Below, piece by piece: positions 1-8,762 of a DNA stretch of 64,000 nucleotides. Position 1 is the first letter of the stretch. Each line of letters starts with the position of its first letter. The notes under the pieces are model-generated. The model saw nothing but the letters and a program-made list of their open reading frames with translations, had not been told where the DNA came from and ran no database searches. The stretch comes from an uncultured Clostridia bacterium. GTDB lineage: Bacteria; Bacillota; Clostridia; TANB77; CAG-508. The DNA lies in assembly GCA_947626025.1 (NCBI GenBank), contig CANQQQ010000002.1, positions 2,239 to 66,238 on the forward strand. The letters run 5' to 3'. The translations under genes were made by a program, and so were the position numbers.

Positions 1-2306
1 ATATATTTTTAGCTTCTAGAATATTTTTTAGGCTATTTTCTGTATCTATATAATCTTTATTTTTCATTTTAGTAATCATAAAAATGTAATCTTTATATAA
101 GTCAGGAAATAAATTTTTTATCTCATTTTCGTACTTATTTTTTCTCTCTTTAGATATGTCATTTTTCCAGACATAAAAAATTAGTTCTTTTTTGGTTAAA
201 GCATCATATATGCTTTGAATTGAATTATTATCTAATAATTTTTTTATCATTAATTCACAAATATACTCTATTATATAATTTGATAAATTAATATATGTTA
301 AATCTTTAACCGATATATATTTATATTTTATACATAAATCAATTATTTTTTCGAAAGCATCTCCTTTTCTTCTTTCAAACATTATCTCTTCTCTAAGATC
401 CATATTACTTTTTGAATCTTCTTCTAAAAATCTTTTAACTATTTTAGTATTCAAAATCTCTACGATGGTTTTTCTACCAAATTTGTCTAATATATCAACA
501 TTATTATTTATAAATCTTAGAAAACTTGCGACATCTTTATCAGAGTTTAGTTGCCTTAGTAATTTTTTTATTCTATTTATATTATAATTCTTTATTATAA
601 ATTCTTTTATTAGTGTATCATCCATATAAAAATATATTTCTTCTTTAAATCTATCTTTATAATTCAAAATATATGTATTAATTATATCATCGAGTTTTTC
701 TAGTTTATTTATCATTTTACATTCATGAAGTATTATAGAAAGTAGTCTATTATTTATTATATATAAATCTAATACATTATCTATTTTAGAAATATCCATT
801 ATTTTTACATAGATTGTTAAGAATCTAACCTTAAATCTATTATCATTCATAATTTTTTCTTCATTTATTGTTAAAAAATATTTTAAATTACTTAATTCAA
901 TTAATTCATCTGGAACATAATTGTCTAATATATTATCTATTATTGATAATATATTGTTTATATAAATAGTATAAAATTCATCGATTTTACTATTAAAGTT
1001 AATATTAATAAGTATATTACTACATTCTTCTAATACACTTTTATAATTAATCCTAATGATATTTGAAATATAACTATCGTTATAACTCAAATATTGATAT
1101 AATTTTGTATATTGAAAAATCATTTTCTGACATATTTTTACTATATATTCTTTATCCGCAGTTTCAAAATTAATATTAAATAATAAGTTTAATAAATTGT
1201 CTTGTTTTTCTATATTATTATACACAAATTCTAATATTAACTTCCTATATACTTCAGATTCACATACTATATAAGAAATAGTATTAAACCAAAATGGATC
1301 AATTTCTTTATTTTCATTTATAACTATTTTGTATAGATTACTGTTGGAAAAATTATTTTCAATTATCTCATTTGCAGCCAAAAATTCCAATAACTCCTTA
1401 TTTTCAAATTGTAAAATTTCTCCATCATTTAATAATAATTGATTATTCAAAAAGCTTTCAATTATATCTTTATTCATAATATAGTTTTTTATGTCTAAAT
1501 AGTTTATTCTACTTAAAAATGTAGTAAACTCTTCAATGGTTAAGTTTATTTTCCCAGACATCATCATAACTAAAGCCATTGATTGTAATATTTTTTTATG
1601 AATATTCTTTTCTATTTTTGTATTTGCCCTATTATTCAATGTGTCTAAATGATTGTTGACTATTAAGTTTAATATGTTGTATTTATTAACTTTTTCCAAA
1701 TTATTAATCTGTTCTATATTATCAATTATATAAATTAAAAATCTCGGAATTTTTAAAAGACTTTTAATATCTTCTATATCTGAATTATCTATATTTTTAT
1801 TTTTTAATATTTCCACTACCTTACACTCTTCAATAGGCATTATTTCATATACATTGTTTGTAGTATTCAACATATTATTTTTTTGTAAAAAATCTTTTCT
1901 ACTTGAAACAATAACTTTTTTATTATTAATTTTAAAAATATAATTTATTACTTCTTCTATTATATTTACATTAATTTCGTCTAAACCATCAAAAATAACT
2001 ATTTCATTTTTATCTAAGATTTTCTTTTTTATTTCACTTAATTTACTATATCTTTTTAATTCAAGTAATAATGTTTTTCTTTTTGCTTTGTTAAACCTAC
2101 TATTAATTAAATTTAAGAGATATGTTTTACCTATCCCATTACTTCCTGTTATTATAGATATACCTTTTTTATTTTCTAACATAGAAATAAATTCATCATG
2201 ATTTGCTATTATGTTTTCCTCACTATATTCATATTTATTATTTTCTTCATTATTTAATTGATAATTAATGCCATCTTCAAATAATTTAATAATTTTTTGC
2301 TCAACC
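1..2306 (-). CDS. NACHT-family STAND NTPase, partial. The start codon is at 2306 and the C-terminus runs off the window at position 1 (>768 aa). It is absent from the ORF track because there is no stop codon in the window.
   Basis: My own minus-strand translation gives MEKVEQKII...ISIITGSNGIGKTYLLNL (Walker A, GxxGxGKT), then IVIFDGLDE (Walker B; the DGLDE form is the NACHT hallmark), then KVIVSSRKDF (the NACHT [ST]xR motif). A long Asn/Ile/Leu-rich helical C-terminal region follows for more than 500 aa. There is a strong RBS, aaaaggagaattaaATG. The reading frame stays open to position 1. Confidence 0.7.
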
Positions 2307-2356
2307 TTTTCCATTTAATTCTCCTTTTATATTTACAATTATGTCTTTTTATTTTA

Positions 2357-3352
2357 CTAAGTAATATTATTCTTTATATTCTCTAATTTGTTCCTATCCG
2401 AAAATAGCATGTTAATCATTTTTTTTACTACCATTTCTAGTTCACAGCAAATATGTAATATAACCCAGTTTTTTCTACTATATTCTGAATAATCAAATGA
2501 GAAATTACCATCCATTATTTCACTAGCAAACTCTTCAATCAATTTTTCAAATGATATAAAATCTCCATGTGCTATTTTATTTCTCATTTTTCGTAATTTT
2601 TTAGGTATAATATTTTTTAAATCTTCAGGATATTCATCATCTAAAAAAGTAATTAACTTTTTATCTAATTCATATTCTTTTTCCTTTTCCAAAAACAACT
2701 GGCATAATGAATATAATTTTAAAAAGTGATATTCATTATAATCATTATCTTTGAAAAAGGAATTTATTAGATAATCTAACTGTAAATAATCATTTTTACT
2801 AACGAGAAAATTATCAATTTTTTTCCCCCATAATTTTAGTGAACTAATATATTTTTTTATATTACAAGTGTAATGTAAAAATCCATATGGATTATTAAAA
2901 TGATTATTAGAAGAATATATACAATGTGGTATATTTCCGCTTTCACTTATATTACATATAAAATTTATTATTTTTTCTGCGTAATCATTTTCGCATAATC
3001 TACCATCAAAACAATTTGTTTCCCAGCCTCCTAATGGCATGTCATTATAATTATAATCTAAATATATACAAATCATATTGTCAACGATTTTATGTATCAT
3101 TTTGCAATTACTCATATTTTCCATTTCTGTTGAAAAACATACACTTGAATAGAATTTTTTCACATCGAATGGTGATTTTAAATTATATCTTTTTGAATTC
3201 TGATCAATTGTTTTTTTTGCTAACACCACCTCTTTGTATAACGCATCATTCCAATTATTATTTCTTTCGTTAGGAAGATTGGCTATATATAATCCTAATT
3301 TTTTTGATATACAAATAGGTTTTATTTTTCCATAAATATTTAATACAACCAT
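2357..3352 (-). CDS. Hypothetical 331-aa protein with a C-terminal HEPN-type Rx4HG motif (KLRKMRNKIAHGD). It is a putative RNase effector.
   Basis: The ORF track protein has the motif R-N-K-I-A-H-G in its C-terminal third, matching the HEPN consensus R[NHQ]xxxH seen in Abi-type HEPN proteins. It sits 50 bp upstream of, and on the same strand as, the NACHT NTPase gene. Confidence 0.5.
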   Translation of the reverse strand: MVVLNIYGKIKPICISKKLGLYIANLPNERNNNWNDALYKEVVLAKKTIDQNSKRYNLKSPFDVKKFYSSVCFSTEMENMSNCKMIHKIVDNMICIYLDYNYNDMPLGGWETNCFDGRLCENDYAEKIINFICNISESGNIPHCIYSSNNHFNNPYGFLHYTCNIKKYISSLKLWGKKIDNFLVSKNDYLQLDYLINSFFKDNDYNEYHFLKLYSLCQLFLEKEKEYELDKKLITFLDDEYPEDLKNIIPKKLRKMRNKIAHGDFISFEKLIEEFASEIMDGNFSFDYSEYSRKNWVILHICCELEMVVKKMINMLFSDRNKLENIKNNIT

Positions 3353-3474
3353 TATAACTCCTCGTATATTTTATAAATCATCCAAAAATATTTCTTTAAT
3401 TTGTTATCAAAAAAGCAAAATAATTCTGTAATATATATTACTATTATCTTGCTTTTCTTTTGTTAATTATTTTT

Positions 3475-3675
3475 TTATTGATTGTCTTCTTCTACTTCAC
3501 TTAATTCAATAAAATCTTCTTCTGGACTATTTTTATAAGAACGACTTAAATGATAATGTCCACCATCTACACTGCAAGTCTCACATTTACATGTTACAAA
3601 TTCATGAATACCTTTTGATTCAATAATTTGTCTGCAGTGTTTGCATTGAATTTTATTTGATATTATCTTTTCCAT
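3475..3675 (-). CDS. Small zinc-ribbon protein (66 aa; CxxC ... CxCxxC) with an acidic C-terminal tail.
   Basis: The cysteine pattern is C11/C14 and C29/C31/C34. It lies between the methyltransferase and the HEPN gene on the same strand. Confidence 0.4.
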   Translation of the reverse strand: MEKIISNKIQCKHCRQIIESKGIHEFVTCKCETCSVDGGHYHLSRSYKNSPEEDFIELSEVEEDNQ

Positions 3676-3701
3676 AATTTCATTTCTCCATTTTCATTTT
3701 A

Positions 3702-5966
3702 TTAATACTTATATTCTTCGTTATCTTCTGCAACCATTAAAATATTATCTTCTTCTATTTCTGTACTATATTTTGATTCAGAGATTATCCTATTCCATGC
3801 TATCTTATGTTCAAAATTAATTTCCGTATCTTGTGATAAATTCCTTACATAATTGTTTATAAAAGTATCTGTACTATTAATTAATCTTAAATAATATTTT
3901 AATGTATCAAATACACCATTAACTATAATCTGACATCCATGTTCAGTTCTAATATGTTCAATTAAATTATCTATTTTTATTCTTTCCTCTTCATCGCAAT
4001 GTACTGTACTTAATATATAATATCTTTGAATATTAGTATCTTTAATCTTTTTATATGCATCCATCACCATTATTGAGTCTGGTTTTATATCAAATTTAAC
4101 CTCGACAATTTCATATAGCTCTTTGCTTTTTATATCTCTTACTACTATATCTCCTGTTGCTCCACTACTTCTATCGCAAGATGTATGTGAATTTAATGGT
4201 TCTAGTTCTTTTCCTTCAAATCGTTTTAACTCATTAATTATACACTCATATATACTATATATTGCAATAACTGGTAGTATTGATGCCCCTCTAGATGAAT
4301 ATTTATAATAAAAATGTTTTTTAAGATATTCTAATATATCAATGATATTTAATGTTCCTTCTCTTTTTATTGGATTGATTATTGCTACTGCTTTCTGTTG
4401 TTTGTTTAATAAACATAATTTTATTATAGCTTTAAGATATGTATTTGGATTTGAATTATTTTCTTCAATATCATTTAGGATTTTTAAGAATGCGTCTTTT
4501 ACTTGTTTATTATTTATTTTACCAGGAAAGTCTAATGTAAATGGATATGGTTGTTCTATACTTCTTGTTAACCAACCAGATTCCTTCATTGCACCATAAA
4601 ACTGTTTGGATTTCAAAAATGGAGTTACATATTTGGTATCGAAACTTCTTCCACTATATCCATTTTCTAAACTAATTTTATGATATCTTACATCTTGTTC
4701 TGGATGTAAGCACTTATATGTTATACTAGAAAACAATGCCGTAAAAACTCCTTTTGAAGTTTCTTCTGCATCAGTAATATTTTTTACCCATTTAATTTGC
4801 TCATTATTTAAATCTAATTCACTTATATTTTTTATGTTTTCTGATTCCAAATATATTTTTTCTAAAAACTGAGTTGGATTATTCATTATAACATCTCCTT
4901 CATCAAATAACTGTTTTTTTATTTGTCTAGCTATTTCTTGTATCATATTTACACATACACTATTTCCTATTCTTTCATAAAGTTTAGCTTTAGATCCGAT
5001 TTTTTTAAAATTTTCTGGAAATCCCATAAACCTATAACATTCATTTAATGTCAATTTTCTAACATTAGTTCCATCATATATCCAATATCTTCCACATGTT
5101 TCTTGAGATGCTATTGTAGGATGAATTCCTTCTATTGAATATATTCTATTAGGCTGTTTATGTACTCTTGATAAATTTTCTGTACCTGGCCTCACTCCAA
5201 CTGTTCGCATTTTTTTATTCCTATATCCAGCAAAAATTAGTCCTGACTTTTCTTGCCTTTTAGCTTGTTTTATTATAGTATATTCATTTGGATTAAGATA
5301 TTCAAATTCTCCTGACTTATCTAAAAAGTCTCTCATTGATTCTATTGTTATTTTTTCAATTTTATTAAAATCAAAAAATTTCCCTATTTTGTTTCCGACA
5401 ATTATAATTCTTTCTCTATTTTGAGGTACATTAAAATCCTTTGCATTAAGTACCTTATATTGTACAGTATATCCTAAACTTTGTAATGCTGATATCATTA
5501 CTCTTAAAGTATTTCCTTTATCATGTTTCTCTAAATTTTGAACATTTTCTAATACAAAAACTTTTGGATTTTTATTTTCTAGTATTCTACATATATCAAA
5601 AAATAAAGTTCCTCTTGTATCATCATAAAATCCTTTTTGTTTACCACTTATTGAAAATGCTTGACATGGAAATCCTGCACATAAAACATCAAACTCTGGT
5701 ATAGTATTAACATCTACTTTTGTTATATCACAATATGGATCATCTCCAAAATTTTCTTTATACATATTGCATGCATGTTCATCTATTTCTGAACTAAATA
5801 CGCATTTATAGCCTTCTCGTTCAAAAGCAATTCTAAAACCTCCTATACCAGCAAATAAATCTATAAATCTAATATTTTTATTTTCCATATTATTATTCCT
5901 TTTACTTATAAATACTCTAGTATAATTTATATCATAAAATGACATTTTTCTCAACTTATGCTTCAA
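3702..5966 (-). CDS. DNA (cytosine-5)-methyltransferase with a ~380-aa C-terminal extension carrying a PD-(D/E)xK-like motif. The actual start is probably the ATG at 5888 (MENKNIRF...), which has an AGGAA RBS.
   Basis: The N-terminal half carries the C5-MTase motifs: motif I FAGIGGF, motif IV GFPCQAFS (the catalytic PC) and the ENV motif VLENV. The C-terminal extension contains GDIVVRDIKSKELYEIVEVK, which fits a D...ExK nuclease-like core. Confidence 0.8.
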   Translation of the reverse strand: MKHKLRKMSFYDINYTRVFISKRNNNMENKNIRFIDLFAGIGGFRIAFEREGYKCVFSSEIDEHACNMYKENFGDDPYCDITKVDVNTIPEFDVLCAGFPCQAFSISGKQKGFYDDTRGTLFFDICRILENKNPKVFVLENVQNLEKHDKGNTLRVMISALQSLGYTVQYKVLNAKDFNVPQNRERIIIVGNKIGKFFDFNKIEKITIESMRDFLDKSGEFEYLNPNEYTIIKQAKRQEKSGLIFAGYRNKKMRTVGVRPGTENLSRVHKQPNRIYSIEGIHPTIASQETCGRYWIYDGTNVRKLTLNECYRFMGFPENFKKIGSKAKLYERIGNSVCVNMIQEIARQIKKQLFDEGDVIMNNPTQFLEKIYLESENIKNISELDLNNEQIKWVKNITDAEETSKGVFTALFSSITYKCLHPEQDVRYHKISLENGYSGRSFDTKYVTPFLKSKQFYGAMKESGWLTRSIEQPYPFTLDFPGKINNKQVKDAFLKILNDIEENNSNPNTYLKAIIKLCLLNKQQKAVAIINPIKREGTLNIIDILEYLKKHFYYKYSSRGASILPVIAIYSIYECIINELKRFEGKELEPLNSHTSCDRSSGATGDIVVRDIKSKELYEIVEVKFDIKPDSIMVMDAYKKIKDTNIQRYYILSTVHCDEEERIKIDNLIEHIRTEHGCQIIVNGVFDTLKYYLRLINSTDTFINNYVRNLSQDTEINFEHKIAWNRIISESKYSTEIEEDNILMVAEDNEEYKY

Positions 5967-5977
5967 AATTTTTACAT

Positions 5978-6364
5978 TTAATTTTTATGAAAAAAATTAT
6001 CATAAGGATAACCTGCTTCAATATATAACTCTGTTAACTCCATTTTATATTTTTCTAATAACTCCAAATACTTTTGCTTAAATACATTCTTGCAAATCCA
6101 TTCTACCCCTTCTTTTGAAATTACAACTTTTTTATTAAGTAAGAATTTATATTTTTCTAAACCACTATCACACATTTTCTTAATTGCTTTTCTAATAGTA
6201 ATATCTTTTTTCTTAAAATACTTACACAATTGTTTTATATCCATGTCTTCATTCCACCAGTTCTCCTTATGCTCTATTTTCAATAATTCTTCATATTGCT
6301 TAATTCTATTTTCAAAGAAATCCACATCAGCACCTATCAAAGATTTTTCTTTTTGAAAATACAC
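5978..6364 (-). CDS. Hypothetical 128-aa protein with a GTG start. It ends 11 bp upstream of the methyltransferase gene.
   Basis: It is an open reading frame with a basic helical segment, DIKQLCKYFKKKDITIRKAIKK, that could bind DNA. The sequence upstream of it (6365-6500) has stop codons in all frames. Confidence 0.3.
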   Translation of the reverse strand: MYFQKEKSLIGADVDFFENRIKQYEELLKIEHKENWWNEDMDIKQLCKYFKKKDITIRKAIKKMCDSGLEKYKFLLNKKVVISKEGVEWICKNVFKQKYLELLEKYKMELTELYIEAGYPYDNFFHKN

Positions 6365-6760
6365 TTGATTTAGCTATGCACATGCTTCAACTAAAACAAA
6401 ATATTTTCTACCTCTAATTTTTTCACTTCTCCATCTACAAGTTGGATTTTTTTAGCATCACATCTATAGCTTTTCTTAAATTCATATGCTTCATTTTTTC
6501 CTATGCTTAGTATTTATTCCTAATGAATGAAATCTACTTAGAATTTTATTATATGATAGAAAAATACTATCAAAAAATCGCTACAACTTAGTTTGCTGTA
6601 GCGATATAAAAATGATTTCGATGGTAACACTCGAACTTACGTACACGGCATAAGTTATCTGTAATCGCTCTGCTCAACAGCTAACTTAACCTTCTGGTTA
6701 TGAGATTTTATATTTCACATAGATAAATTTTTTATATATTCTATCTATATATTATCAATA

Positions 6761-7588
6761 TTAACCATTCATCATTGATTTTAAAGTTTTTCCATCTTTA
6801 TTTTTCCATTCTGTTAACCCATTAGCATTCCTACCTAATACCATAGCAGCTGCCGTTGAAGGAGATAAAAATAATGTGTCTTTTGCAAAAATATTGTTTT
6901 TATTTATTATTTTCTCACTTCTTAGGTCATTCCATCTATTTCTCAAGGATTGTGAACTCGCATCTCTAAATTTACTGTTGCTCTGTGAGCCTTTAAATAC
7001 AATAAAGCCATCACTCGTTAGTGCCCCTACTGCTTTTAGTCCTATAGAATTTATGTAATACATTTCATCTAATTGTACTTCTTTTTTTGTTACTATTTTA
7101 CTAAATATTTTGTACCCTAGTGCAGTAGTTATCATTTCGATAATCTCTATTACTTCCTGCATTTCGGAGATTTCTAGTTCTGTTAATGGTGATTCTGTCG
7201 TATTTTTTCTATTTTCAATTCTAAACCTTTTTGCTCCTTTAGCTTTTTTAAATAAATAATTTTCTAAGTATCTTATATTCCCCTTGTTGAAACTATTGTC
7301 ATTTCTTATAAAAATTAAACTCTCATTCCAAAAGTCTTTATCAGATAAATGCTGTATTAATCTTTTATATACATTTTCTGACTCTCCAATATATGCATAT
7401 AGCTCCCCATCTTTCTCTCCAAATAATATATATACTCCTGCATACGCTATGTCTTCTCTATCCTTGCAGTTTTTTACTTTTGTTTTTGGAATCTTATATG
7501 CCAATATGTTAGAATTGCTAAGTTCACATTTTATCCTTCCATCGATTTCACCATCTACTAAAAATAATTTTATATTTTTTTGATACAT
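6761..7588 (-). CDS. GIY-YIG nuclease family protein with a DUF4357-type C-terminal domain.
   Basis: The N-terminus reads GVYILFGEKDGELYAYIGESENVYKRLIQH, a GIY...YIG core. The C-terminus reads FKGSQSNSKFRD...FLSPSTAAAMVLGRNANGLTEWKNKDGKTL, which is typical of DUF4357. Confidence 0.65.
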   Translation of the reverse strand: MYQKNIKLFLVDGEIDGRIKCELSNSNILAYKIPKTKVKNCKDREDIAYAGVYILFGEKDGELYAYIGESENVYKRLIQHLSDKDFWNESLIFIRNDNSFNKGNIRYLENYLFKKAKGAKRFRIENRKNTTESPLTELEISEMQEVIEIIEMITTALGYKIFSKIVTKKEVQLDEMYYINSIGLKAVGALTSDGFIVFKGSQSNSKFRDASSQSLRNRWNDLRSEKIINKNNIFAKDTLFLSPSTAAAMVLGRNANGLTEWKNKDGKTLKSMMNG

Positions 7589-7710
7589 TATATTCTCCTT
7601 ATTTTCCTTTTACTTCTATAAATGTTATTTGTAAGCCTAACTGCTTAATTTTTTTTCTAATTTATTTTTCTTTGATAATTTAAACTGTAATAATTTTACA
7701 TTTACCTCTA

Positions 7711-8612: not shown

Positions 8613-8762
8613 ATGAAACACATTAAAACATTGTCATCGCGTGATTACAAGGAATCAATGAAAAAGGGCGGATGTGGCGAATGCCAAACTTCCTGCCAAT
8701 CAGCTTGCAAGACATCTTGTACAGTTGGGAATCAGCACTGCGAAAATATCGAGAACAAGTAG
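8613..8762 (+). CDS. scfA: SCIFF (six cysteines in forty-five residues) precursor peptide for a radical-SAM-modified RiPP.
   Basis: The 49-aa product MKHIKTLSSRDYKESMKKGGCGECQTSCQSACKTSCTVGNQHCENIENK matches the conserved clostridial SCIFF core GGCGECQTSCQSACKTSC. The RBS is aaaggagaaacattATG. The true start codon is internal to track ORF 8556..8762. Confidence 0.8.
   Translation: MKHIKTLSSRDYKESMKKGGCGECQTSCQSACKTSCTVGNQHCENIENK

What the first reader, a model, noticed from the sequence alone, without database searches (positions are those of the whole stretch)
2357..6364. Co-directional defense island: methyltransferase with nuclease-like C-terminus, zinc ribbon and HEPN/NACHT genes
Five consecutive minus-strand genes separated by 11 to 121 bp make up a compact island. 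In transcription order they are a 128-aa unknown protein, a 754-aa C5 methyltransferase, a 66-aa CxxC zinc-ribbon protein, the HEPN protein and the NACHT NTPase. The methyltransferase has an orthodox catalytic N-terminal half (FAGIGGF, GFPCQ, ENV). It then continues for about 380 aa with no methyltransferase similarity, and this extension contains GDIVVRDIKSKELYEIVEVK, a D...ExK nuclease-like motif. No separate restriction endonuclease gene is present. If the C-terminus is a PD-(D/E)xK nuclease, this is a single-chain restriction-modification enzyme built on a C5 methyltransferase, which is an uncommon arrangement. The adjacent zinc-ribbon and 128-aa proteins are uncharacterized and could be controller or specificity partners.
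Basis: partly seen in the sequence, partly recalled or inferred. Interest (0 to 1): 0.6.

Follow-up and report, generated by a model that had tools for sequence, protein, structure and literature searches.

The report
Fused cytosine methylase–restriction enzyme gene
One gene in this clostridial defence island encodes both halves of a restriction-modification system, a cytosine-5 DNA methylase joined to a complete restriction endonuclease; this natural fusion is unusual but recurs across several bacterial phyla.

Summary

- **The gene:** ORF 3702..5966(-) most likely starts at ATG 5888, giving 728 aa. It joins an M.HhaI-like C5 DNA methyltransferase to a complete type II restriction endonuclease.
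- **Nuclease evidence:** D606, E622 and K624 are invariant. The AF2 model (pLDDT 87) matches EcoT38I (GRGCY^C) over its full length.
- **Gene linkage:** in about 55 other genomes the same nuclease is a separate gene directly downstream of a DNA methyltransferase, either C5 or N4/N6.
- **Likely target site:** host DNA around these genes is depleted of GDGCHC (O/E 0.08-0.28 in fused loci; 0.52-0.68 in two-gene loci). That is the SduI/SacI/BanII specificity group.
- **Origin of the fusion:** fused forms make one clade in Clostridia, Fusobacterium, Mycoplasma, Helicobacter pylori and Bacteroidales. It arose by loss of the M stop codon.
- **Internal start:** the ancestral R ribosome-binding site and ATG (4900..4884) are retained in most members. 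Free R is probably also made.

The partner idea fails. The 128-aa ORF is a decayed remnant of a ~207-aa gene. That gene and the zinc ribbon (DUF7695) are backbone genes flanking a variable cargo slot. HEPN plus NTPase is a separate module. HEPN is supported; NACHT is only weakly supported. No activity was measured.

The parts
3702..5888 (-). Fused M-R gene, 728 aa from ATG 5888. The open frame extends to TTG 5966, which would give 754 aa.
   Evidence: The ORF is. AAAGGA lies upstream of ATG 5888. A 728-aa gene is called on an independent assembly, L093. Single ORFs of 705-755 aa with the same architecture occur in 24 other genomes.
4914..5873 (-). C5 DNA methyltransferase domain (residues 32-351 of the 754-aa ORF), M.HhaI-like.
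   Evidence: Pfam PF00145 E 1e-93. TIGR00675 E 2e-95. Full-length alignment to M.HhaI, including the target-recognition region, E 1.6e-69. Motifs FxGxG, PCQ, ENV, QxRxR and GN are invariant in 23 fused genes.
4884..4900 (-). Internal Shine-Dalgarno-like AAGGAG (4900..4895), an 8-nt spacer, and in-frame ATG (4886..4884) at the M/R junction. Putative start of a free 394-aa R product.
   Evidence: Sequence. 20 of 23 fused genes keep an ATG here. 14 of those 20 have GGAG/GAGG 4-11 nt upstream, against 4 of 272 other internal ATGs (Fisher p 4e-16, not corrected for phylogeny).
3705..4886 (-). Complete type II restriction endonuclease module: a helical recognition half plus a PD-(D/E)xK core. Catalytic codons are D606 (4151..4149), E622 (4103..4101) and K624 (4097..4095). 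D598 and E619 are also invariant.
   Evidence: Conservation. AF2 pLDDT 87.3. Foldseek hit to 7edb_A (EcoT38I with DNA): E 7e-10, TM 0.64/0.69 over 370 columns. Homologues lie next to a methyltransferase gene.
3475..3675 (-). 66-aa zinc-ribbon protein, Pfam DUF7695. A backbone gene on the downstream side of the cargo slot, not an R-M partner.
   Evidence: PF24749 E 1e-23. phrog_7042. The same gene follows unrelated cargo in L083-L086. Among the fused loci it is present only in L001.
5978..6582 (-). Decayed copy of a ~207-220 aa backbone gene on the upstream side of the cargo slot. Only the last 128 codons (5978..6364) remain open.
   Evidence: 87% nucleotide identity to L001 5257..8292. Stops and a frameshift in 6365..6582 relative to the intact L001 and L002 genes. 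Intact homologue in L083-L086, E 1e-93.
6577..6605 (-). Terminator-like hairpin ending the upstream GIY-YIG gene. It coincides with the right-hand limit of homology to L001.
2357..3352 (-). 331-aa protein with a C-terminal HEPN-type RNKxAHGD motif (R257..H262). A separate module.
   Evidence: The motif is conserved at 95% or more in 121 sequences. Homologue P0165 is named 'Apea-like HEPN domain' by UniRef. No Pfam, NCBIfam or PADLOC hit. No significant fold hit.
2..2314 (-). N-terminal 771 aa of a 1296-aa P-loop NTPase, cut by the window end. It follows the HEPN gene.
   Evidence: Translation. Only weak AAA, NACHT and EruA hits, all below cut-off. 82% identical full-length homologue in L083. 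Full gene visible in L093.
6761..7588 (-). GIY-YIG plus DUF4357 protein (PADLOC candidate system PDC-S14). A neighbouring, independent island member.
   Evidence: PDLC04925 E 4e-95. PF14267 and PF01541. No full-length homologue in any related locus; only partial GIY-YIG-region hits in L046 and L083-L086.

Best explanation
The gene at 3702..5888(-) encodes a natural single-chain type II restriction-modification enzyme.

**Domains**
- The N-terminal ~325 aa form an M.HhaI-like SAM-dependent cytosine-5 DNA methyltransferase with its own target-recognition region.
- The C-terminal ~390 aa form a complete, self-sufficient type IIP-like restriction endonuclease of the EcoT38I/SacI structural kind. 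It has a helical recognition half and a PD-(D/E)xK core (D606, E622, K624).

**Proposed mechanism (inferred)**
- Both halves read the same short site, most likely within the GDGCHC set.
- The methylase marks the inner cytosine of host sites.
- R domains dimerise on unmethylated incoming DNA and cut it with Mg2+.

**Origin**
- The fusion arose once, from an M-then-R operon in which the M stop codon abutted the R start codon. The stop was lost.
- The R ribosome-binding site and ATG were kept. The gene therefore probably yields both M-R (728 aa) and some free R (394 aa).
- Methylation needs only a monomer, whereas cleavage needs a dimer. A fused enzyme should therefore methylate first when it enters a new cell. 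That would suit a controller-free cargo gene.

**Setting**
The gene is cargo in a variable slot of an ICE-like or phage-like backbone. In this genome that backbone has decayed into a ~13.5-kb chromosomal defence island.

**Shown versus inferred**
- Shown: domain identities, conservation, fold match, gene linkage, site depletion, ORF continuity across genomes, and the modular context.
- Inferred: both enzyme activities, the exact site, internal initiation, and timing by assembly.
For: **Methylase**
- PF00145 E 1e-93 and TIGR00675.
- Full-length match to M.HhaI.
- All catalytic motifs invariant in 23 fused genes.

**Nuclease**
- D598, D606, E619, E622 and K624 are invariant in 37 homologues of 44-62% identity and in the fused clade.
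- The AF2 model has pLDDT 87.3 with an alpha-beta-beta-beta-alpha-beta core.
- Foldseek top hit is EcoT38I REase with DNA: E 7e-10, TM 0.64/0.69, 370 of 382 columns. BstEII and N.BspD6I follow.

**Linkage**
- Of the 80 best loci from 584 relatives in species-representative genomes, 25 have the fused ORF.
- About 30 have a closely related Dcm gene immediately upstream on the same strand.
- About 22 have a PF01555 N4/N6 methyltransferase gene in that position; 8 of 8 tested, E ~1e-50.

**Specificity**
- In ~1 Mb of these loci, the four most depleted of 2080 hexamers are GAGCCC, GAGCTC, GTGCAC and GAGCAC. All are GDGCHC.
- GDGCHC O/E is 0.08 in H. pylori loci and 0.28 in the other fused loci. Control motifs ADGCHT, TDGCHA and CDGCHG give 0.8-1.1.
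- The window has 11 sites against 20.6 +/- 4.4 in shuffles.
- H. pylori is on record with GDGCHC and GWGCWC restriction enzymes (PMC3849833).

**Fusion history**
- Split relatives show 'TAA ATG', TAATG or ATGA junctions.
- Fused forms make one clade in an NJ tree.

**Internal start:**

**Feasibility and timing logic**
- An engineered C5-methylase/REase fusion, RM.Eco29kI, restricts phage (PMC3039593).
- The monomer-M versus dimer-R argument is made in PMC12707154.

**Cargo context:**
Against: - No enzymatic activity was measured.
- The C-terminal half gives no hit in the local Pfam, NCBIfam or PADLOC, nor by sequence against PDB, even with a profile.
- The 'RE_SacI' label comes only from precomputed annotations on homologues and was not reproduced locally.
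- Similarity to EcoT38I is structural only (16% identity), and the query is a predicted model.
- Site depletion in the window itself is modest. H. pylori depletion is species-wide, so it is not specific to carrier strains.
- The loci analysed are not phylogenetically independent.
- The SD-like GGAG could be a by-product of Glu/Gly-rich linker codons. Three fused lineages lack the junction ATG.
- REBASE could not be consulted, so the enzyme may already be catalogued there.
Confidence: 0.8

Rival explanations
1. The protein is only a methyltransferase. The C-terminal domain is a degenerate former nuclease kept as an extra DNA-binding or targeting module. On a mobile element this could act as an anti-restriction orphan methylase.
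For: Databases name the fused proteins simply 'DNA cytosine methyltransferase'. The gene sits in a cargo slot of a transmissible element, where orphan methylases are common. Decayed copies exist: L026 has lost the R start and N-terminus, and L030 has a frameshifted R.
Against: All five acidic and lysine residues of the nuclease motif are invariant across 23 fused genes from several phyla at 55-65% identity. A binding-only domain would be free to lose them. Strong depletion of GDGCHC around fused genes implies cutting pressure.
Confidence: 0.1
2. The five co-directional genes form one multi-component defence system. The 128-aa and zinc-ribbon proteins act as controller or specificity subunits, and HEPN plus NTPase act as effectors coupled to the methylase.
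For: The genes are tightly spaced on one strand with 11-122 nt gaps. The order DUF7695, HEPN, NTPase recurs in L083-L086.
Against: In L083-L086 the same flanking genes enclose MazG-like and GIY-YIG/helicase genes instead of the R-M gene. In L001 the R-M gene is followed by AAA_21, RloB and TIR genes, not by HEPN and NTPase. 22 of the 24 other fused loci have neither flanking gene. The 128-aa ORF is a pseudogene remnant. HEPN homologues occur alone in other islands.
Confidence: 0.04
3. The fusion is an assembly error, or a very recent inactivating or accidental read-through in this one genome. The real system would be an ordinary two-gene M plus R operon.
For: Two-gene relatives differ from the fused form by a single stop codon. 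The window and many of the related loci (L001-L095) come from metagenome assemblies.
Against: The uninterrupted ORF is found in 24 other genomes. These include complete isolate genomes: H. pylori HUP-B14, Fusobacterium sp. SB021, Mesomycoplasma ovipneumoniae and Lachnospiraceae oral taxon 107. The fused forms make one old clade. Three independent assemblies of this locus agree.
Confidence: 0.02
4. The system is a fused R-M enzyme as described, but the junction SD and ATG are only a vestige or a linker-codon by-product. A single 728-aa product would then carry all the activity.
For: GGAG arises naturally from GAA-GGA-GAA (Glu-Gly-Glu) codons, which are common in flexible linkers. L008, L011 and L016 lack the ATG yet keep all catalytic residues. 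Translating ribosomes would occlude an internal site.
Against: Linker residues vary freely (EGD, SGG, KGV, ERG, KEN, MEV), yet the ATG and a purine-rich core at 5-9 nt persist in 18 of 20 genes that keep a junction ATG (14 of 20 with strict GGAG/GAGG). Other internal ATGs show this in 10 of 272. Met is the only conserved residue in that stretch.
Confidence: 0.4

Closest known systems
EcoT38I restriction endonuclease (PDB 7EDB; GRGCY^C)
   Same: The whole-chain fold match covers both the recognition and catalytic halves: Foldseek E 7e-10, TM 0.64/0.69. Its site is a subset of the GDGCHC set that is depleted around this family.
   Different: Identity is only 16%, and no sequence-level hit appears even with a profile. 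EcoT38I is a free-standing protein, whereas here the module is the C-terminal half of a methylase polypeptide.
SacI / SduI-Bsp1286I-HpyF36IV / BanII / HgiAI group of type IIP enzymes (GAGCT^C, GDGCH^C, GRGCY^C, GWGCW^C)
   Same: Many homologues carry a precomputed Pfam RE_SacI (PF09566) label. GAGCTC is the most depleted palindromic hexamer in the two-gene C5 loci, and all six GDGCHC classes are depleted in fused loci. H. pylori, which carries the fused gene, has reported GDGCHC and GWGCWC enzymes.
   Different: The RE_SacI hit was not reproduced with the local Pfam. The sequences of these named enzymes were not available for comparison. The cleavage position and exact site of this enzyme are unknown.
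M.HhaI (GCGC C5 methyltransferase)
   Same: The alignment is end to end, including the variable target-recognition region with the RIYS...GI...T block, E 1.6e-69.
   Different: The recognition loops differ. GCGC-containing sites (RGCGCY, WGCGCW) are not depleted in carrier loci, O/E 0.90-0.95, so the specificity is probably not GCGC. M.HhaI has no nuclease extension.
Type IIC/IIG combined R-M enzymes (Eco57I, MmeI, BcgI; BtgZI as the odd one)
   Same: Endonuclease and methyltransferase lie in one polypeptide.
   Different: The known ones pair a small PD-(D/E)xK domain with a gamma-class (BtgZI: alpha-class) amino-methyltransferase. They share one specificity module and cut at a distance (PMC4081073). 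Here a C5 methylase and a complete type IIP-like endonuclease each bring their own recognition apparatus, in the order M then R.
Engineered RM.Eco29kI fusion (PMC3039593)
   Same: A type IIP endonuclease and a C5 methylase were joined by removing the stop/start overlap. The product methylates, cuts and restricts phage 100-fold. It is a laboratory model of exactly this evolutionary step.
   Different: It is artificial, has the order R then M, and uses a GIY-YIG nuclease. Its authors could only speculate that natural counterparts exist.

Membership tests
C5 DNA methyltransferase (Pfam PF00145 / TIGR00675 dcm) | Profile match above the curated cut-off | tested here: met
   PF00145 314.7 bits against a cut-off of 22. 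TIGR00675 320.5 bits against 100.65.
C5 DNA methyltransferase (Pfam PF00145 / TIGR00675 dcm) | Catalytic motifs I (FxGxG), IV (PCQ), VI (ENV), VIII (QxRxR) and X (GN) | tested here: met
   All are present in the window protein and invariant in 23 fused genes.
C5 DNA methyltransferase (Pfam PF00145 / TIGR00675 dcm) | Transfers methyl to C5 of cytosine in a defined site | not testable with these tools
   Needs bisulfite, EM-seq or nanopore data, or an in-vitro assay.
PD-(D/E)xK restriction endonuclease | D...(D/E)xK catalytic residues on an alpha-beta-beta-beta-alpha-beta core | tested here: met
   D606 lies at the start of strand 2, and E622-x-K624 lies in strand 3 of the model. The residues are invariant.
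PD-(D/E)xK restriction endonuclease | Structural similarity to a solved restriction endonuclease | tested here: met
   7edb_A (EcoT38I) E 7e-10, probability 1.00, TM 0.64/0.69. BstEII E 4e-3.
PD-(D/E)xK restriction endonuclease | Mg2+-dependent site-specific DNA cleavage | not testable with these tools
   Requires biochemistry.
Type II restriction-modification system | The endonuclease gene is linked to a DNA methyltransferase gene | tested here: met
   Fused in 25 loci, adjacent to Dcm in ~30, and adjacent to a PF01555 N4/N6 methyltransferase in ~22 of the 80 best loci.
Type II restriction-modification system | Host and element DNA avoid the recognition site | tested here: met
   GDGCHC hexamers are the four most depleted of 2080. 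O/E is 0.08-0.28 in fused loci against 0.8-1.1 for control motifs. The window has 11 sites against 20.6.
Type IIC (combined R and M in one chain) | Both catalytic modules lie in one uninterrupted polypeptide | tested here: met
   A continuous ORF is seen in the window, in three assemblies of the same locus, and in 24 other genomes.
Type IIC (combined R and M in one chain) | Usual architecture: N-terminal nuclease plus gamma-class N6A methylase sharing one specificity module, with cleavage outside the site | tested here: not met
   The order is M then R. The methylase is C5 class. The nuclease module is a complete stand-alone-type enzyme. Review description in PMC4081073.
Pfam RE_SacI (PF09566) | Profile match above the gathering score | tested here: inconclusive
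   There is no hit at E<=1 on the window domain or at E<=0.1 on eight homologues with the local Pfam copy. Many homologues carry a precomputed PF09566.18 label.
Controller (C) protein or specificity subunit of an R-M system (proposed for the 128-aa and 66-aa ORFs) | Co-occurs with the R-M genes across genomes | tested here: not met
   These ORFs are present only in L001 and L002. They also flank unrelated cargo in L083-L086. The 128-aa ORF is a pseudogene remnant.
HEPN domain (331-aa protein) | Conserved Rx4-6H motif in an all-helical domain | tested here: met
   R257-N-K-x-A-H262-G-D is conserved at 95% or more in 121 sequences. The C-terminal half of the model is helical.
HEPN domain (331-aa protein) | Profile or fold match to a described HEPN family | tested here: inconclusive
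   No hit in the local Pfam, NCBIfam or PADLOC. Foldseek against PDB gives nothing below E 2. The only support is a UniRef name 'Apea-like HEPN' on homologue P0165 and PF18736 on P0238.
NACHT / STAND NTPase (2..2314) | Match to the NACHT profile above cut-off | tested here: not met
   PF05729 gives 18.5 bits against a cut-off of 26.7, over 20 residues (the P-loop only). EruA gives 21.5 bits against 1000. AAA_14 and AAA_22 are also below cut-off. It is a P-loop NTPase; the class is unresolved.

The most novel reading that the evidence does not exclude
This would be a previously uncharacterised natural class of single-chain R-M enzyme, in which a complete C5 methylase and a complete type IIP endonuclease each keep their own DNA-recognition apparatus.

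It would express two isoforms from one ORF, M-R and free R, through a conserved internal ribosome-binding site. R activity would then be set by dimer assembly and isoform ratio rather than by a controller protein. That would make a self-timing, one-gene R-M cassette.

This design would explain its spread as cargo between Firmicutes, Fusobacteria, Mollicutes, Bacteroidales and Helicobacter. It may also correspond to the H. pylori GDGCHC and GWGCWC enzymes, for which no paper on the genes turned up in the searched library.
Probability: 0.35. Interest if true: 0.65.

Novelty: new variant of a known kind. Interest (0 to 1): 0.52.

Why it matters
**A gap in the textbook picture.** Textbook combined (type IIC/IIG) enzymes all use amino-methyltransferases and a shared specificity module. 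A natural, widespread fusion of a C5 methylase with a full type IIP endonuclease fills that gap. It is the natural counterpart of the engineered RM.Eco29kI model of how R-M genes fuse.

**Annotation.** Automatic annotation calls these proteins plain 'DNA cytosine methyltransferase'. It calls the free-standing nuclease homologues 'hypothetical protein' or even 'DNA methyltransferase'. More than 2000 database proteins therefore hide a restriction endonuclease.

**Practical use.**
- The inferred GDGCHC-type specificity predicts a restriction barrier in gut Clostridia, mycoplasmas and H. pylori that matters for genetic manipulation.
- The retained internal start offers a testable mechanism for dosing a toxic nuclease without a controller gene.

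**Context.** The analysis also defines a cargo hotspot, between a ~207-aa gene and DUF7695, in a clostridial mobile-element backbone.

Tried and rejected
**Searches that gave nothing**
- Direct profile searches of the C-terminal half against Pfam, NCBIfam, PADLOC and PHROGs gave nothing usable.
- Sequence and profile searches against PDB chains gave only noise.
- The RE_SacI label could not be reproduced.
- Literature searches for natural C5 methylase-REase fusions, RE_SacI, and the genes of HpyF36IV, Hpy8III and SduI returned nothing specific.

**Hypotheses considered and rejected**
- *A GCGC-type site.* The methylase resembles M.HhaI, but RGCGCY and WGCGCW are not depleted, O/E 0.90-0.95.
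- *The neighbouring GIY-YIG/DUF4357 gene as the separate endonuclease.* No full-length homologue accompanies the R-M gene elsewhere, and it matches an independent candidate system, PDC-S14.
- *The 128-aa and DUF7695 proteins as partners*.
- *Phase variation or slippage at a homopolymer near the junction giving an M-only product.* A7 tracts are scattered, as expected for AT-rich genes, and none is conserved at the junction. The TAATG overlap in the window's +1 frame is not conserved either.
- *An excess of M stop and R ORF in the same frame among two-gene relatives.* The count is 14 of 30, and I judged it not significant given relatedness.

**Inconclusive**
- The fold search on the HEPN-like protein model gave no hit.

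Full report
**What is in the sequence.** Window positions 1..7600 carry six minus-strand genes in a 19-28% GC stretch.
- The fifth gene, the NTPase, lies at 2..2314. It is cut by the window end.
- Upstream at 6761..7588 is a GIY-YIG/DUF4357 gene.
- The long ORF has a canonical C5 methyltransferase in residues 32-351 (PF00145 E 1e-93, TIGR00675 E 2e-95).
- Its real start is probably ATG 5888, preceded by AAAGGA, which gives 728 aa. A gene caller made the same call on an independent assembly of this locus.
- The remaining ~390 aa match nothing in Pfam, NCBIfam, PADLOC or PDB sequences.

**The C-terminal half is a restriction endonuclease module.** Four lines of evidence agree.
1. *Family size and form.* A database search found 2021 relatives. 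Many are free-standing ~370-aa proteins and others are fused to PF00145.
In the numbering of the 754-aa ORF this is HxSxD598, G-D606, E619, E622-x-K624, then K640 and R648-Y-Y.
3. *Structure.* The AlphaFold model is confident (pLDDT 87.3, pTM 0.77). It places D606 at the start of one strand and E622-x-K624 in the next, within an alpha-beta-beta-beta-alpha-beta core preceded by a ~200-aa helical region.
4. *Fold match.* Foldseek against the PDB gives EcoT38I restriction endonuclease bound to DNA as the clear top hit (7edb_A, E 7e-10, TM 0.64/0.69, 370 aligned columns). BstEII and N.BspD6I follow.

The match covers the whole chain. The module is therefore a complete type IIP-style enzyme with its own recognition half, not just a cleavage domain.

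**Gene linkage shows it is the R of an R-M pair.** A scan of one genome per species found 584 relatives, and I examined the best 80.
- In 25 loci the nuclease is the C-terminal half of a single 705-755-aa ORF. The N-terminal half is a close relative of the window's methylase. Hosts include Clostridia, Lachnospiraceae, Fusobacterium, Mesomycoplasma ovipneumoniae, five H. pylori strains, Rikenellaceae, Muribaculaceae and Epulopiscium.
- In about 30 loci it is a separate gene immediately downstream of such a Dcm gene.
- In about 22 loci no Dcm is present, and the gene directly upstream is a PF01555 N4/N6 DNA methyltransferase (8 of 8 tested, E ~1e-50).

The protein always sits behind a DNA methyltransferase, whatever that methylase's chemistry. 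That is how a restriction endonuclease behaves.

**Likely recognition site.**
- I computed maximal-order Markov observed/expected counts over ~1 Mb of these loci.
- Among all 2080 strand-merged hexamers with expectation of at least 15, the four most depleted are GAGCCC, GAGCTC, GTGCAC and GAGCAC. All are instances of GDGCHC.
- GDGCHC O/E by group:

| Group | O/E | Observed / expected |
|---|---|---|
| H. pylori fused loci | 0.08 | 7 / 86 |
| Other fused loci | 0.28 | 35 / 127 |
| Two-gene C5 loci | 0.52 | 167 / 322 |
| N4/N6-paired loci | 0.68 | 168 / 246 |

- In the two-gene C5 loci, GAGCTC is the most depleted palindromic hexamer (O/E 0.31).
- Control motifs ADGCHT, TDGCHA, CDGCHG and GCGCHC stay at 0.8-1.1.
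- The window has 11 sites against 20.6 +/- 4.4 in shuffles, and none of 100 shuffles was lower.
- This fits the structural neighbour EcoT38I (GRGCY^C). It also fits the precomputed RE_SacI label (GAGCT^C) and a published table listing H. pylori enzymes HpyF36IV (GDGCHC) and Hpy8III (GWGCWC), with genome-wide depletion of those sites (PMC3849833).
- The methylase aligns end to end with M.HhaI. GCGC-type sites are not depleted, however.
- I infer a GDGCHC-type site methylated on the inner C. The exact site for the window enzyme remains unproven.

**How the fusion arose and what it still carries.**
- Two-gene relatives have the M stop codon abutting or overlapping the R start: 'ctt TAA ATG aaa' in frame in L042, TAATG in L041, and ATGA in L033 and L046. 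One substitution would therefore fuse the frames.
- An NJ tree of the nuclease domains puts all fused forms in one clade. An archaeal two-gene locus is its sister, and a few decayed copies are nested inside. This points to a single old fusion that then spread horizontally.
- Across 23 fused genes, every methylase motif and every nuclease catalytic residue is invariant. Both halves are therefore under selection.
- The ancestral R start is retained. 20 of 23 fused genes keep an in-frame ATG 6-9 codons before the conserved start of the nuclease domain.
- 14 of those ATGs have GGAG or GAGG 4-11 nt upstream (18 with a relaxed core). For all other in-frame internal ATGs the figures are 4 and 10 of 272 (Fisher p 4e-16, not corrected for phylogeny).
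- The surrounding linker residues are otherwise free to vary.
- In the window the element is AAGGAG (4900..4895), 8 nt, then ATG (4886..4884).
- I therefore think a free 394-aa R is made alongside the 728-aa M-R protein. The alternative is that the purine-rich core is only a by-product of Glu/Gly linker codons. I cannot exclude this, and three lineages lack the ATG.

**Proposed mechanism.**
- The methylase half protects host sites.
- The nuclease halves, with or without free R, dimerise on unmethylated sites and cut.
- A recent review argues that combined polypeptides pass through a monomeric, M-active and R-inactive concentration range on entering a cell (PMC12707154). That would remove the need for a controller protein.
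- An engineered C5-methylase/endonuclease fusion, RM.Eco29kI, works in vivo and restricts phage 100-fold (PMC3039593).
- These steps are inferred. No activity was measured here.

**The neighbours are not partners.**
- Nucleotide homology to the closest relative (L001, uncultured Clostridium, 87%) runs from 6582 to 3547. That span covers the 128-aa region, the R-M gene and the first two-thirds of DUF7695.
- In L001 and L002 the '128-aa' gene is an intact ~207-215-aa ORF. In the window its first third carries stops and a frameshift.
- In L083-L086 the gene order is: DUF6076, HTH_17, phage replisome organiser, DnaC-like, the ~210-aa gene, then MazG-like plus a GIY-YIG/ResIII/SLFN-type helicase, then DUF7695, HEPN-331, the 1296-aa NTPase, and finally type IV secretion genes.
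- The ~210-aa gene and DUF7695 are therefore backbone genes of an ICE-like or phage-like element, and they bracket a variable cargo slot. In the window, L001 and L002 that slot holds the R-M gene.
- L001 has AAA_21, RloB and TIR genes after DUF7695 instead of HEPN and NTPase.
- An independent assembly of the window's own locus (L093) shows the whole island. The order is: pyr genes, desulfoferrodoxin, GIY-YIG/DUF4357, the remnant gene, M-R, DUF7695, HEPN, NTPase, a 97-aa gene, AAA_14/DUF4143, three unknown genes, then signal peptidase and holB. It has no transfer genes and looks like a decayed remnant of the element.

**The HEPN and NACHT labels.**
- The 331-aa protein belongs to a family of more than 300 proteins. 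An RNKxAHGD motif is conserved at 95% or more, and one member carries a UniRef 'Apea-like HEPN' name.
- Its model is confident (pLDDT 87.8) but finds no PDB neighbour.
- It occurs with the 1296-aa NTPase, with an unrelated 1087-aa NTPase, or alone next to Wadjet, a type I R-M plus TIR, or a serine recombinase.
- The NTPase has only sub-threshold AAA, NACHT and EruA hits. 'P-loop NTPase' is safe; 'NACHT' is not established.

**Comparison with what is known.**
- A standard review describes type IIC enzymes as an N-terminal PD-(D/E)xK domain plus a gamma-class methylase. BtgZI, with an alpha-class methylase, is the one exception it names (PMC4081073). It mentions no C5-based example.
- A genome survey found that only 0.9% of type IIC systems resemble two-gene type II systems, mostly in Firmicutes (PMC4176335).
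- I found no paper describing this fusion, but I could not consult REBASE, which may list it.
- I therefore rate it a new variant of a known kind: an ordinary type II R-M pair in an unusual, conserved single-chain form.

**Verdict.** The nuclease and single-chain R-M reading is supported with about 0.8 confidence. Specificity within the GDGCHC group has about 0.7 confidence, and exactly GDGCHC about 0.5. Functional internal initiation has about 0.5-0.6. The partner roles for the small flanking ORFs are rejected.

Noticed in passing
window 4884..4900 (-); junctions of L001-L027: A conserved Shine-Dalgarno-like core plus an in-frame ATG sits at the methylase/nuclease junction of the fused genes. 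This is the retained start of the ancestral R gene and suggests a second, R-only product.
   Followed up: yes
L028, L031-L033, L035-L037, L039, L043, L046-L052, L054-L056, L064, L066: The same nuclease family is paired with a PF01555 N4/N6 methyltransferase instead of a C5 methylase. These loci fall in two separate clades of the nuclease tree, so the methylase partner was swapped at least twice.
   Followed up: partly
L083-L086 (e.g. L083 4827..7894); L001 5241..8454; window 3475..6582: There is a cargo hotspot between a ~207-220-aa backbone gene and DUF7695 in a clostridial ICE-like or phage-like element. It holds either the M-R gene or a MazG-like gene plus a 594-aa GIY-YIG/ResIII/SLFN-type helicase. 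In L001, AAA_21, RloB and TIR genes follow and interrupt DUF7695.
   Followed up: partly
window 2..2314 (-); L083 9037..12927: The 1296-aa NTPase contains an internal duplication: residues ~276-670 also align to ~830-1219 of the full-length homologue. It has no family assignment above threshold.
   Followed up: no
window 2357..3352 (-); L081, L087, L089-L092: The HEPN-motif 331-aa family (more than 300 members) appears in varied defence and mobile-element settings. These include Wadjet JetABCD, type I R-M plus TIR, the end of a serine-recombinase element, and positions upstream of two unrelated giant NTPases. Its conserved N-terminal ~240 aa (W110, D116-G-R118, C120-E121) has no known fold match.
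   Followed up: partly
window 6761..7588 (-): A GIY-YIG plus DUF4357 protein matches PADLOC candidate defence system PDC-S14 (E 4e-95) and phrog_12629. It sits between the island and the chromosomal desulfoferrodoxin gene.
   Followed up: no
L020-L023, L025 (H. pylori): GDGCHC sites are almost absent around the fused gene in H. pylori (7 observed against 86 expected). This matches published species-wide depletion and the reported HpyF36IV and Hpy8III enzymes. No paper linking those enzymes to this fused gene turned up in the searched library.
   Followed up: partly
L026 6981..7111; L029 3295..4824; L030 6938..8013: These are decayed copies of the fused system. L026 has an in-frame TAA and has lost the R N-terminus. 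L029 has a methylase broken by several stops. L030 has a frameshifted R with no methylase nearby.
   Followed up: no
L042, L034, L044, L045, L061, L073-L076, L080 and others: In 14 of 30 two-gene C5 loci, the M stop codon and the R reading frame are in the same frame and separated by a single stop. A one-base change would recreate a fusion there.
   Followed up: partly
window 8613..8762 (+): A 49-aa SCIFF ranthipeptide precursor (TIGR03973, E 5e-25) has no radical-SAM maturase gene immediately downstream. The next gene is pyrD on the opposite strand.
   Followed up: no
one search hit list (e.g. P0058, P0078, P0079, P0081): Free-standing nuclease homologues are named 'DNA methyltransferase' or 'DNA (cytosine-5)-methyltransferase 1' in public records. 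The name was probably propagated from the fused proteins, so this looks like a systematic misannotation.
   Followed up: no
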